Virus record (IMG/VR): IMGVR_UViG_2526164690_000030
Strand: one strand, 5' to 3'
Length of the DNA stretch: 54,025 bases
Source of the DNA: a virus
Lineage: Duplodnaviria > Heunggongvirae > Uroviricota > Caudoviricetes
Shown here: positions 21,001 to 24,000 of the stretch, one piece after another
How the letters are laid out: each line of letters opens with the position of its first letter
Position numbering within the stretch: position 1 is the stretch's first letter
Program-made: the position numbers

Positions 21001-24000
21001 AAGCCCCTTTGCTAAAACTGGAAATTCATGACGCTACCGGCACCGTAATTGATGACTGGAAAGCCAAATACGGTGCATCGCTGGTGGCTGAAATGGGCGA
21101 TCCAAACGGTAATGCAGGCACTTTTAAAACAGATTTCTTTGTTACGTCTGCAATGCTGGCTGGTGATGTTGTTACCGTTATTGCTGTCAGTGAAGACGTG
21201 CGCAGGTTTAAGATCCCCTCCCCGCGCACAAATTTACATACCAACAAAACACCAGACGCTATATTCAAGGCATATTCCGGCAAGCTTAAAATTACCAGCA
21301 GCGTGCTAAAACGCGCAGTTACATATCATCTGAATGCCGGTGACAAACCGTCAAAAATGCTTTCGGAGATAGCGCGAGACAAAGGTGCATTATGTTGGGT
21401 ATGCCGGGGGGAATTTAACTTTTACACCCTGGCTGATCTGATGAAGCAAACGCCATCATTTACCTACGAGGGGAATAACCCTAAAGCAGAATACACTTTG
21501 TCCAAAATGCGCCTACTCCAACAGGAACATGCGACAACAGCAAAGAATCAATATCGTTTTGTTGGGTATTCCATGACCGATGGCTACGTCGAATATGGCG
21601 ATAGCTCACTCCCAGTGCGTTATATATCCGACTCTGATATGGAAACTCTTCGCAATATGCAGCTGTCTCTCGTCCCCAAAATGGATATAGAAGTCGCAGG
21701 CAATCCTGATATAAAACCGGGGATGGTGATAGAGATTATCGTATACCGCTATGACCAGGAAAACCGCATTGATGAATCAATGCCCCGTAAGCTGATAGTA
21801 AAAAATGTTGCGCACTTTGAAGACCGCGTAGGCTACACAACACGAATGATATTGGGAGTGCCGAACAAATGAAGCGTAGAGCGCAAATTGTTGGAACTGT
21901 GCACCCGGCAGGGCTTATGCGTGCTCAAGTCCGTGTTTTACCTGACTGGAATGGCGTTCCTGATGACGATCTACCCTGGGCGGAATACCTGTTACCCATC
22001 GGAAACGCTTTTGTACCCACAGTCAAAGGTGACCTGGTCTGGGTAGAGTTTCCTTATTTAGATGTTAACGGTCGAATAGACACCAGACGCCCAATGATAG
22101 TTGGTGCCGCTCAGGATGCACCGGGAGGAATTCCAAACGTTGCACCAGAAGCATCTGGCAAAGGCAACGGCTGGACGCCGCCGGAAGTAGATGGAGCACC
22201 TCCCCGCCCCCAAATCTCAGCAACGAAAGACTTCGTTATTCACCGCAACAATATTCTTGAAGTACGAACTGCTGGTGGCGGCTATGAAATTGCCAATACG
22301 GCAGCAGGCGCAAGGATTGGCATGAATGAGTCCGGGCAGATATATATCATTGGTCCGGCTGATGTAATCGTGAATGCAGGAGGGAGTGTTAACGTCAAAT
22401 CAGCCAACAACATCAATGTTAATGGGGAAAATATAGCTGTCACCGCTAACGGAGACATAGCTTTCAAGGCAGGAGGAACCTTTCAGGCCACTGCTGGCAA
22501 CTTCGATTTCAAGAAAGGATAGAAAATGCACCCATTTGTGTTAGATAATTAATATGTATTTTCTAACACAAATGGTGAGACATGAGATCAGTCGCTTTCA
22601 AAAATATCTTCATCTATCGTCTTTCACGCGAAGTTAGCTGGGATACTGCAGAAGTAAATGCAGCCCTTAGCAAGTTTGTGTTTACCCCATGCGGTTCTCA
22701 GGATATGGCTAAAGCTGGTTGGACCTCCGTTCTTGGTGACAACCTCACCCATGAATACCAGGGTTTTCTTCTGATACAGCATAAACGAGAGGAAAAAATC
22801 CTACCTTCTCAAGTGCTCAAAGAAGAGTTACAGAAAAAAATCCTGACACTTGAAGAAGAGCAAGACAGAAAGCTGAAGAAGACCGAAAAAGATTCGCTGA
22901 AGGATGAAGTGCTTCACTCTCTTCTTCCTCGTGCTTTCACGAGAAAATCACTCGCCAAAATCCTGATCGACCGCAGAAACCATCTGGTATTCGTTGAGGC
23001 AAGCAGCGCCAAAAAGGCAGAGGACCAGCTGGCTTTATTGCGAAAATCGCTCGGCAGCCTGCCTGTCATTCCATTCACACCACGCGAACCGCTGGAAATT
23101 ACAATGACCGAGTGGTTTAAAAACGGCTTCCCTGCCGGATTTACAGCAGGTGAAGACGCCACATTAAAGGGTCTGCTCGATAATGGTGGTGCCGTTCGCT
23201 GCAACAAAGTTGATCTACAGTCCGACGAGATTATGTCTCACATTGAGGCGGGGAAAGTAGCTACGACCGTTGCAATTAACTGGATGGACCGCGCGTCGTT
23301 CAGAGTCAACGATGATATGAGTATCAAAGCCCTGACATTCTGTGATGATCTCTATGACCAGAACGACGATATCGACCGGGAGGATGTAGCACAACGATTT
23401 GATGCTGATTTCGTGCTCTTTACGGGCGAATTATCTGCACTGTTTAACGCGCTGGTGGAGGCCATTGGCGGTGAAGCAGAACGATAATAACCGACCGCTT
23501 GTTGTGAGTCTTTGTGATTTTACGGGGGCAATGGTTGCCCCCTGGCTGGAATACGGTGTCGATGCCGCTATCGTCGATCCACAGCACTTATCGACCAGTG
23601 ACGAGCGGATGCAATCAGGTGCCGTTCTGACGCGTATTAGTGCGATCATCGATAGCGATGAAGTATACGCTTTTCTCCGTAAGAATTTGCAGCGCATCGT
23701 GTTTCTGGCCGGGTTCCCACCGTGTACTGACCTGGCTGTTTCCGGCGCGCGCTGGTTTTCGGACAAGGCTAATAAAGATCCGGTTTTCCAGTTCAAAGCA
23801 ATGCAGGTTGTCTGGCAGTGTTATGACATTGCAAAGATGATCGGTTGTCCGTACATGATTGAAAATCCGGTCAGCAAAATATCGACATTCTGGCGTAAGC
23901 CAGATCACATCTTTCACCCTTACTTCTTCACTGCATATTGTCAGGAAGATAACTACACCAAAAAAACATGCCTCTGGAGCGGCCAGGGCTTTGTCATGCC

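What the first reader, a model, noticed from the sequence alone, without database searches (positions are those of the whole stretch)
22534..22574. Recurring TTTGTGTTAGAAAA motif, including a perfect palindrome, at promoter positions: candidate repressor operators
A perfect 12-bp inverted repeat lies upstream of rdgC. The same half-site occurs upstream of the Ref-like gene (about 8926-8940), downstream of it facing the immI region (about 9590-9600, inverted) and upstream of ORF 32059..32451 (about 32463-32478). Distribution at early-gene promoters fits operators of a C1-type prophage repressor, although the sequence differs from the P1 C1 operator as I recall it.
Basis: seen in the sequence. 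Interest (0 to 1): 0.45.

Follow-up and report, generated by a model that had tools for sequence, protein, structure and literature searches.

The report
Repressor operators of a D6-like phage-plasmid
The repeated TGTGTTAGAAAA motif is real, strongly non-random and conserved, and is most likely the binding site of the prophage's own P1-C1-like master repressor, so it is an ordinary though not yet annotated version of a well-known phage control system.

Summary
The window is a phage D6-like plasmid prophage, a distant P1 relative, with a Tn21/class-1-integron insertion at 1-8870.

- **Sites in the window.** The motif is a 19-bp asymmetric site, T[G/A]TGTTAGAAAAnTAAtnT. It has six strong copies: 8928-8946(+), 9580-9598(-), 13336-13354(+), 22537-22555(+), 22552-22570(-) and 32465-32483(+). 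The flagged palindrome is two such sites inverted and overlapping by 4 bp, a 34-bp "bivalent" unit.
- **Non-randomness.** TGTTAGAAAA is the most over-represented 10-mer in the D6 genome (10 copies against 0.29 expected). Almost all copies are intergenic. The same method applied to P1 returns its experimentally known C1 operator.
- **Positions match P1.** D6 sites lie at c1, lpa, both sides of repL, both sides of ref, mat, and hrdC/rdgC. They keep these positions in relatives whose C1 is only 68-80% identical.
- **Conservation.** Both arms at rdgC are invariant down to about 69% DNA identity, while the spacer varies.
- **Late promoters differ.** D6 late promoters use another motif, AAATCACA-N7-TAnnnT.

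Binding by C1, whose gene lies outside the window, is inferred and not shown. One oddity remains: the flanks of the rdgC palindrome co-vary symmetrically. Verdict: a new member of a known kind, of modest interest.

The parts
22537..22555 (+). Left half-site of the bivalent operator upstream of rdgC (TGTGTTAGATAATTAATAT)
   Evidence: PWM score 26.5. TGTGTTAGATAATT is invariant in 5 lineages down to 69% identity and in 14 distinct sequences.
22552..22570 (-). Right half-site of the bivalent operator, inverted and overlapping the left one by 4 bp (34-bp unit 22537-22570)
   Evidence: PWM score 27.5. ATTTTCTAACA is invariant in all sequences; the next base, C, is T in 3 of the 14 sequences. The same 15-bp offset recurs at other loci in D6, the S. 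dysenteriae plasmid and LR890273.
22532..22575 (.). Full inverted repeat (arms 22532-22549 and 22558-22575) including flanks that co-vary symmetrically between lineages
22520..22549 (+). Candidate sigma-70 promoter for rdgC (TAGAAA-18-GATAAT). The -10 hexamer lies inside the left half-site.
   Evidence: GATAAT is kept in every lineage, even in L114, where the TTAG of the half-site is lost. The role is inferred.
22582..23487 (+). rdgC/hrdC, first gene of the presumably regulated hrdC-dcm-dmt operon
   Evidence: P1 counterpart: uhr-hrdC-dmt under Odmt.
8928..8946 (+). Operator 61 bp upstream of ref, the counterpart of P1 Oref
   Evidence: PWM 30.1. Conserved in D6, the S. dysenteriae plasmid and LR890273 while the upstream flank is not.
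8943..8961 (-). Decayed partner half-site at the same 15-bp offset. It is intact in the S. dysenteriae plasmid and in LR890273.
   Evidence: PWM 8.6 in the window. Full bivalent sites in the relatives.
9580..9598 (-). Operator overlapping the ref stop codon and facing the c4-icd-ant (immI-like) module. Same position and strand as P1 Omat.
   Evidence: PWM 28.8. Conserved. C4 RNA at 10256-10343.
13336..13354 (+). Weaker operator between simB (-) and mat (+).
   Evidence: PWM 19.5. Only weak counterparts in relatives (10.1 and 15.1).
32465..32483 (+). Operator between orf52 (-) and capsid gene 23 (+), 13 bp from the orf52 start
   Evidence: PWM 31.5. Conserved in three lineages.

Best explanation
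The motif is the operator of the D6-type C1 repressor, the master lytic repressor of this P1-like plasmid prophage.

**The site.** Each site is an asymmetric 19-bp sequence, T[G/A]TGTTAGAAAAnTAAtnT. By analogy with what I recall of P1 C1, one repressor molecule probably binds each site. Sites occur singly or as 'bivalent' pairs: two sites inverted and overlapping by 4 bp, giving a 34-bp unit. The flagged palindrome is such a pair.

**Proposed action in the lysogen (inferred).** C1 is made from a gene outside this window. It would occupy the sites and block transcription of:
- ref, from the site at 8928. In D6 this site also faces a divergent early operon, which the transposon has removed from this window;
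- the c4-icd-antirepressor immunity module (9580);
- mat and/or simB (13336);
- the rdgC-dcm-dmt operon (22537-22570, where the left half-site contains the likely -10 hexamer GATAAT);
- orf52-orf53, and possibly a sigma-70 promoter of the capsid gene (32465).

**Shown:** the sites exist, are far from random, avoid coding sequence, are conserved in sequence and position, and mirror the P1 operator map.

**Inferred:** that C1 is the binding protein, and that binding represses the adjacent promoters.
For: 1. **Chance is excluded.** There are 5 matches against 0.61 expected in the window. TGTTAGAAAA is the most over-represented 10-mer in D6, at 10 copies against 0.29 expected.
2. **Positive control.** The same method on P1 gives ATTGCTCTAAT, the known C1 operator core, at 12 copies against 0.14 expected. 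PMC8546580 gives the P1 consensus as ATTGCTCTAATAAATTT, with 22 operators.
3. **Independent genomes.** A PWM trained on D6 finds 15-16 sites at thresholds 14-16 in the S. dysenteriae plasmid CP026818 (simulated sequences modelled on D6: 0.1-0.2). It finds a similar set in E. coli LR890273. Sites sit at the same loci: c1, lpa, repL upstream, pmgS/pmgR, pmgM, ref on both sides, rdgC, ppp/pdcB, cre/orf117 and 23/orf52. The site downstream of repL is seen in D6 and LR890273 only, and the site at mat is weak in both relatives. Their C1 proteins are 70% and 80% identical to D6 C1.
4. **Match to the P1 map.** The sites correspond to P1 Oc1, Olpa, OrepL, Orlf, Oref, Omat and Odmt.
5. **Phylogenetic footprint at rdgC.** Both arms are invariant and the spacer is variable. 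The ref and capsid sites show the same pattern.
6. **Bivalent architecture.** The offset is constant at five loci, as for P1 Obanab.
7. **Cognate repressor.** D6 C1 is collinear with P1 C1, gives a sub-threshold hit to NF041318 'phage repressor protein C1' and belongs to the same PHROG.
8. **Exclusivity.** The P1 and D6 operator words are mutually exclusive between the two genomes.
9. **Autoregulation.** An operator lies 11 bp upstream of c1 in all C1 lineages, from 70% to 100% identity.
Against: - No binding or expression data exist here.
- c1 is not in the window.
- D6 C1 is only 21% identical to P1 C1, has no Pfam domain and scores far below the NCBIfam cut-off (25 against 500 bits).
- Consensus sigma-70 scans find a promoter overlapping only the rdgC site.
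- Site orientation relative to the nearest gene is mixed.
- Several sites lie only 6-13 bp from start codons, which is unusual for promoter occlusion.
- The site at 13336 is weak and poorly conserved.
- The symmetric co-variation of the palindrome flanks is not explained by protein recognition.
Confidence: 0.8

Rival explanations
1. The sites bind a different regulator, not the C1 homologue. Candidates are another phage-encoded DNA-binding protein (a Cro/Coi-like or Hxr-like factor, or an antirepressor-associated protein) or a host factor.
For: Nothing here ties the motif physically to C1. D6 C1 has no recognisable DNA-binding domain in Pfam. The element encodes several HTH proteins, for example the HigA-type proteins.
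Against: The set of flanked genes reproduces the P1 C1 regulon, including c1 itself and lpa. The motif is kept wherever the D6-type C1 is kept and is absent from P1. It does not fit the CRP half-site spacing (TGTGA-N6-TCACA, from my own knowledge); I did not compare it with other host-factor consensuses.
Confidence: 0.1
2. The rdgC palindrome works mainly or additionally as a nucleic-acid hairpin. It would form in read-through transcripts of the late tail operon, or in single-stranded DNA. Possible roles are a 3'-end stabiliser, a processing site, or an element that masks the rdgC ribosome-binding site.
For: The predicted RNA hairpin has -23.6 kcal/mol, z = -4.4, and 0 of 200 shuffles fold as well. 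Six pairs show changes on both sides, in 17 cells, with 0 of 500 shuffles reaching the observed score. Slid controls are far lower. The co-varying positions are the flanks outside the operator core, where the PWM carries little information. Other bivalent operators lack such symmetric flanks.
Against: There is no U-run and no terminator-like call. The stem is AU-rich. Only about 3-4 independent lineage events underlie the co-variation. Single-arm changes also occur (L110, L111, L117, L118). Template-switch correction of quasi-palindromes could produce symmetric changes without selection. A hairpin cannot explain the single sites elsewhere.
Confidence: 0.07
3. The motif is the late-promoter element recognised by the Lpa activator.
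For: One site lies in the capsid-gene upstream region, and one lies upstream of mat, which also has a late promoter in P1.
Against: D6 late genes carry a different motif, AAAT[CA]ACA-N7-[TCG]ANNNT. D6 has 11 copies, all intergenic and all pointing at late genes. The operator motif instead sits at c1, lpa, ref, repL and the immunity module. It does not resemble the P1 -22 box AAGTNACTT.
Confidence: 0.02
4. The copies are chance similarity in AT-rich intergenic DNA.
For: The motif is AT-rich, and intergenic DNA is AT-rich.
Against: Shuffles and a third-order Markov expectation give 0.3-0.6 copies against 5-10 observed. The cores are invariant across lineages whose spacers and flanks diverge.
Confidence: 0.01

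Closest known systems
C1-controlled operators of bacteriophage P1 (Oref, Omat, Odmt, Olpa, OrepL, Oc4, Oc1 and others; 17-bp asymmetric consensus ATTGCTCTAATAAATTT)
   Same: Both are asymmetric AT-rich sites with many copies dispersed over a roughly 90-kb plasmid-prophage genome. They lie at the same gene contexts: c1, lpa, repL, ref on both sides, mat and hrdC/dmt. A homologous repressor gene sits next to the recombinase/pac region.
   Different: The sequence differs: TGTGTTAGAAAAnTAA against ATTGCTCTAATAAATTT, about 8 of 13 positions alike by my reading. No P1-type site is present. The informative length is about 19 bp rather than 17. The repressor is 345 aa rather than 283 and only 21% identical. 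No lxc or coi homologue is annotated in D6.
P1 bivalent operators (Obanab/Op72ab; Op99ab at c1)
   Same: Both consist of two operator sites in inverted orientation with their A/T-rich 3' ends overlapping, forming one palindromic unit at a promoter.
   Different: The P1 unit is 28 bp (17-mers overlapping by 6). The D6-type unit is 34 bp (19-mers overlapping by 4). P1 has a single site (Odmt) at the hrdC operon, where D6-like elements have a bivalent one.
Lpa-dependent late promoters of P1 (-22 box AAGTNACTT, N4, -10)
   Same: Both are repeated promoter-associated words in a P1-family genome.
   Different: They differ in sequence and in gene class. The D6 family has its own late-promoter word, AAATCACA-N7-TAnnnT.

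Membership tests
P1-type C1 repressor operators (sensu stricto, P1/P7 immunity) | Match to the 17-bp consensus ATTGCTCTAATAAATTT | tested here: not met
   There are 0 matches to ATTGCTCTAAT with up to 1 mismatch in the window and in D6, against 19 in P1. These sites are therefore not operators of P1 immunity specificity.
C1-family operator system (P1-like phage-plasmids, any specificity) | Many copies of one asymmetric site dispersed over the genome, concentrated in non-coding DNA next to immunity, early-replication and some morphogenesis genes | tested here: met
   D6 has 16 strong sites, 15 of them outside CDS interiors. Of the 12 exact cores, 11 lie outside CDS interiors. The contexts parallel P1.
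C1-family operator system (P1-like phage-plasmids, any specificity) | A C1-homologous repressor gene in the same element, itself preceded by an operator | tested here: met
   D6_1 is 21% identical to P1 C1 over 240 aa (E 2e-8) and falls in PHROG 1678 with P1 C1. An operator lies 11 bp upstream of c1 in all lineages. The gene lies outside the 54-kb window.
C1-family operator system (P1-like phage-plasmids, any specificity) | Occurrence both as monovalent sites and as overlapping inverted (bivalent) sites | tested here: met
   Bivalent sites with a constant 15-bp offset occur at rdgC and ppp/pdcB in all three genomes. They also occur upstream of ref in the S. dysenteriae plasmid and LR890273, and at lpa and downstream of pmgS in LR890273 only.
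C1-family operator system (P1-like phage-plasmids, any specificity) | Specific binding by the C1 protein and C1-dependent repression of the adjacent promoter | not testable with these tools
   This needs EMSA or footprinting, ChIP, or reporter assays.
C1-family operator system (P1-like phage-plasmids, any specificity) | Overlap with, or immediate adjacency to, a sigma-70 promoter | tested here: inconclusive
   One consensus-scan hit overlaps the rdgC site and none overlaps the others. I read conserved weak hexamers next to the ref and immI sites from alignments A3 and A4. No transcription start data are available.
Lpa-dependent late promoter | Conserved box about 4-7 bp upstream of a -10 hexamer, located upstream of late operons | tested here: not met
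   Late genes carry AAATCACA-N7-TAnnnT instead.
Intrinsic (Rho-independent) terminator | G+C-rich stem followed by a T-run | tested here: not met
   The scan gives no terminator-like call in 22300-22700. The stem is A/T-rich and is followed by GGTGAGACATG.

The most novel reading that the evidence does not exclude
The rdgC element may be dual-purpose: a bivalent C1 operator on DNA that is also selected as an RNA or single-stranded-DNA hairpin. The five flank positions outside the protein-recognition core change in a complementarity-preserving way in each lineage, unlike any other bivalent operator of the family. If so, the same 44 bp would repress an early promoter in the lysogen and, in late read-through transcripts from the tail operon, form an 18-21-bp duplex. 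That duplex could separate, stabilise or translationally mask the downstream rdgC-methylase operon.
Probability: 0.12. Interest if true: 0.45.

Novelty: new member of a known kind. Interest (0 to 1): 0.3.

Why it matters
D6-like phage-plasmids are common in E. coli, Salmonella and Shigella: 118 PLSDB records carry this locus. They can carry resistance transposons, as this window does.

Knowing the operator word gives the likely C1 regulon of the group. It offers a molecular basis for the heteroimmunity to P1 that I recall for D6. It also provides a simple sequence marker for immunity type, and concrete targets for reporters or for engineering inducible or non-inducible variants.

It adds a second specificity to the unusual P1 C1 family. 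I recall P1 C1 binding as a monomer to asymmetric sites. No Pfam domain was found in either protein.

It does not change the general picture of P1-type regulation.

Tried and rejected
**Literature that could not be reached**
- I tried to read the two primary D6 papers to see whether the operators are already described. These are Gilcrease & Casjens 2018 (PMC5800970) and Sauer & McDermott 2004 (PMC534624). Neither is held, nor is the P1 genome paper.
- A full-text search for the motif words returned only unrelated primer hits.
- A search combining 'phage D6', 'C1 repressor' and 'operator' listed only papers lacking 'phage D6' among the 15 shown.
- Neither D6 GenBank record shown carries any operator feature (MF356679 and AY753669).

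**Searches that led nowhere**
- The genome-contig scan with RdgC returned only chromosomal rdgC genes (about 60% identity) and was useless for footprinting.
- The C1 alignment scan of viral contigs reached only C1 of at least 70% identity. I therefore could not test operator/repressor co-variation in the more distant lineages L114-L116, whose rdgC-upstream half-sites differ.
- tblastn of D6 C1 against the phage collection found only D6 itself.

**Weak or negative tests**
- Consensus promoter scans were mostly negative.
- Pfam gave nothing for either C1.
- My first guess, that the D6 bivalent unit is one helical turn longer than the P1 unit, was wrong. With sites defined consistently, the difference is 6 bp (34 against 28).
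Full report
**What the window is.** Positions 8871-54024 align to Escherichia phage D6 (MF356679) at 89-99% identity, on the minus strand of the record. D6 is a plasmid prophage distantly related to P1, and many of its genes are annotated by their P1 names.

Positions 1-8870 are not D6. They carry an IstB fragment, sul1, aadA1, intI1 and a Tn3-family transposase, which is a Tn21-like class-1-integron module. This segment is shared with more than 5000 plasmid records. An IS4-family transposase at 16284-17489 is also absent from D6.

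The rdgC locus is 100% identical to Salmonella plasmid pYU39_89 (CP011430). The c1 repressor gene of D6 lies at record positions 227-1264, outside the part of the genome that the window covers.

**Checking the observation.** TTTGTGTTAGAAAA is exact at 8926(+), 22559-22572(-) and 32463(+). It has one mismatch at 22535(+) and two at 13334(+). That is 5 matches against 0.61 expected, and no shuffle of 100 reached 5.

The inverted repeat upstream of rdgC has arms 22532-22549 and 22558-22575. They are 18 nt long with one mismatch, and the outer 14 nt are perfect. The inverted copy after ref is TTTTCTAACA within a full site at 9580-9598(-). The site at 13336-13354, between simB and mat, is an addition.

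**Is it more than chance, and what is the unit?** I ranked all 10-mers of the complete D6 genome against a third-order Markov expectation. TGTTAGAAAA came first, with 10 copies against 0.29 expected. The only other enriched family is Chi, GCTGGTGG.

The same script applied to P1 returns ATTGCTCTAAT, with 12 copies against 0.14 expected. This is the core of the experimentally defined C1 operator ATTGCTCTAATAAATTT, of which P1 has 22 copies (PMC8546580). That result is a positive control for the method.

Aligning the 16 D6 copies gives an informative stretch of about 19 bp: T[G/A]TGTTAGAAAAnTAAtnT. Of the 12 exact TGTTAGAAA cores in D6, 11 lie outside CDS interiors, in a genome that is about 90% coding.

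**Independent genomes.** Two diverged relatives were fetched whole:
- S. dysenteriae plasmid CP026818, about 69% identical at the rdgC locus, with a C1 70% identical to that of D6;
- E. coli LR890273, with a C1 80% identical to that of D6.

The PWM trained only on D6 finds 15-16 sites in the Shigella plasmid at thresholds 14-16. Simulated sequences built from D6 composition give 0.1-0.2. It finds a similar set in LR890273, where TGTTAGAAAA is again the top 10-mer.

The sites sit at orthologous places:
- upstream of c1 and of lpa;
- upstream of repL in all three genomes, and downstream of repL in D6 and LR890273;
- around pmgS, pmgR and pmgM;
- upstream of ref and over its stop codon;
- upstream of rdgC;
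- between ppp and pdcB;
- at the cre/orf117 junction;
- between orf52 and capsid gene 23;
- upstream of mat, where the counterparts in the relatives are only weak.

**Comparison with the P1 operator map.** The annotated P1 record lists these C1 operators:
- Oref, 98 bp upstream of ref;
- Omat, minus strand, overlapping the ref stop codon;
- OrepL;
- Orlf, just after repL;
- Odmt, upstream of uhr-hrdC-dmt;
- Olpa, 70 bp upstream of lpa;
- Oc4, OpmgRa and OpmgRb, and the bivalent Obanab.

D6-type sites lie 61 bp upstream of ref and over the ref stop codon on the minus strand. They also lie on both sides of repL, 11 bp upstream of hrdC/rdgC, 76 bp upstream of lpa, at pmgR/pmgS and 11 bp upstream of c1.

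The site after ref faces a c4-icd-antirepressor module. Rfam finds the C4 antisense RNA at 10256-10343. So this site also plays the positional role of Oc4.

The P1 operator word is absent from D6 and from the window. The D6 word is absent from P1, and the D6 PWM gives no hit in P1. Two related phages with homologous repressors and mutually exclusive operator sets is what heteroimmunity predicts. That D6 is heteroimmune to P1 is my recollection of the older literature, not something tested here.

**The repressor.** D6 C1 is 345 aa. It aligns collinearly with P1 C1 (283 aa) at 21% identity over 240 residues, E 2e-8. It hits NCBIfam NF041318 'phage repressor protein C1' far below the cut-off (25 against 500 bits). 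It falls in the same PHROG as P1 C1. Neither protein has a Pfam domain.

In viral contigs whose C1 is 70-100% identical to that of D6, the operator TATGTTAGAAAA[C/A]TAA is kept at the same distance from the c1 start. A second, inverted TTTTCTAA copy lies about 85 bp further upstream.

**The flagged palindrome.** It consists of two 19-bp sites, 22537-22555(+) and 22552-22570(-). They are inverted, with their A/T-rich ends overlapping by 4 bp, and form a 34-bp unit.

The same 15-bp offset recurs in all three genomes at ppp/pdcB. It recurs upstream of ref in the Shigella plasmid and in LR890273; in the window that partner half-site has decayed (8943-8961, PWM 8.6). It also recurs at lpa and downstream of pmgS in LR890273. 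This is the architecture of P1 bivalent operators, which are 28-bp units of 17-mers overlapping by 6, with a different geometry.

Across five lineages down to 69% identity, TGTGTTAGATAATT and ATTTTCTAACACA are invariant while the 6-8 bp between them vary freely. Across 14 distinct sequences, only the G/A position of the consensus and one or two of the outermost positions of this block vary.

The left half-site always reads AGATAAT rather than the consensus AGAAAAT. This creates GATAAT, which the promoter scan pairs with TAGAAA at an 18-bp spacing. In contig L114 the TTAG of this half-site is lost but GATAAT is retained. I infer that the left half-site doubles as the -10 element of the rdgC promoter, so bound repressor would occlude it. 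This is an inference; no transcription start data exist.

**Other sites.** Alignments show the operator conserved and the flanks diverging upstream of ref, after ref and between orf52 and gene 23. By eye, conserved weak hexamers lie next to two operators. These are TTGAAT-17-AATCAT (8946-8974) upstream of ref and TTGAAT-17-TACATT (9604-9632) facing the immunity module. Both fall below the scan threshold, so promoter overlap remains inconclusive.

**Rivals.**
- *Late promoter.* This is excluded. D6 late genes share AAAT[CA]ACA-N7-[TCG]ANNNT, with 11 copies, all intergenic and all oriented toward late genes: 23, pmgB/sit, R/S, prt, 7, lydA, ddrB, upfC, darB, mat and the peptidoglycan hydrolase. 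The P1 -22 box AAGTNACTT appears once, at window 14434-14452(-).
- *Intrinsic terminator.* This is not supported. The stem is A/T-rich with no T-run, and the scan makes no terminator-like call.
- *A different binding protein.* This cannot be excluded without experiments. It would have to mimic the C1 regulon and co-occur with D6-type C1.

**An unexplained layer.** Outside the invariant cores, the five flank positions of the rdgC palindrome differ between lineages but stay complementary: CCATTTGTG/CACAAATGG, CCAATTGTG/CACAATTGG and CAAAACTGTG/CACAGTTTTG.

On 14 distinct sequences, six pairs show changes on both sides, in 17 cells. No shuffle of 500 reached the observed covariation score, and slid controls are far lower. 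As RNA the region folds at -23.6 kcal/mol, z = -4.4.

These positions carry almost no information in the operator PWM. Other bivalent operators lack symmetric flanks. Protein recognition therefore does not explain the pattern.

Only three or four independent events underlie it, and single-arm changes exist. Template-switch correction of quasi-palindromes is a known mutational route in E. coli (from my own knowledge). It could produce symmetric changes without selection. I record this as a minority reading: dual operator plus hairpin.

**Novelty.** The kind of system is textbook P1 biology. The specific D6-family operator word, its regulon and its 34-bp bivalent form are not annotated in either D6 GenBank record shown (MF356679 and AY753669). 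They are also absent from the searchable literature. The two primary D6 papers could not be read, so prior description cannot be ruled out. I file it as a new member of a known kind, with modest interest.

Noticed in passing
window 1-8870: A Tn21-like class-1-integron module: IstB fragment 62-475, sul1 1285-2208(-), aadA1 2629-3636(-), intI1 3566-4576 and a Tn3-family tnpA 5872-8835. Its right end lies about 57 bp from the ref-upstream operator. It replaces the divergent early operon (orf88 onward) that D6 has there, so this D6-like phage-plasmid carries resistance genes and may have lost part of its early region.
   Followed up: partly
window 13428-13448, 19271-19291, 29766-29786, 32540-32560, 41173-41193, 48548-48568 (all +): A second repeated word, AAAT[CA]ACA-N7-[TCG]ANNNT. 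D6 has 11 copies, all intergenic, each 24-136 bp upstream of a late gene and pointing at it. These are probably the D6-type Lpa-dependent late promoters. They differ from the P1 box AAGTNACTT-N4-TANNNT.
   Followed up: partly
window 14434-14452 (-): A single perfect P1-type late-promoter box, AAGTGACTT-N4-TAATCT, between gene 26 and mat, pointing at small ORFs (orf76/orf77 in D6).
   Followed up: no
window 22532-22536 and 22571-22575: The flanks of the rdgC palindrome outside the operator cores change in a complementarity-preserving way between lineages (6 pairs, 17 cells, 0 of 500 shuffles). It is unclear whether this reflects selection for a hairpin or template-switch homogenisation.
   Followed up: partly
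window 10134-10343 (+): Rfam hits to the C4 antisense RNA (10256-10343, 77 bits) and to isrK (10134-10212, 63 bits), just upstream of icd and the antirepressor. This is a P1 immI-like module. D6 has a second icd-antirepressor pair outside the window.
   Followed up: no
whole window (e.g. 10861, 14767, 20012, 22271 on +; 13613, 24881 on -): Chi sites (GCTGGTGG) are strongly over-represented: 21 copies in 54 kb against about 1.6 expected. Chi-containing words are the only other enriched 10-mers in D6 and its relatives, and also rank high in P1.
   Followed up: no
window 16284-17489 (-): An IS4-family transposase insertion, absent from D6, lies in the segment 16270-18221 that does not align to D6.
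   Followed up: no
L114, L115 and L116 (viral contigs), 75 bp upstream of rdgC: More distant relatives (RdgC 61-69% identical) carry altered half-sites. Examples are ATGTTAGATTAC...GAAATCTAAACA, or a decayed left arm that keeps GATAAT. These may reflect a different repressor specificity. Their C1 genes were not recovered.
   Followed up: no
window 22582-23487: The phage RdgC is about 60% identical to chromosomal RdgC of many Enterobacterales (Serratia, Rahnella, Yersinia, Klebsiella). This suggests fairly recent capture from, or exchange with, host genomes.
   Followed up: no
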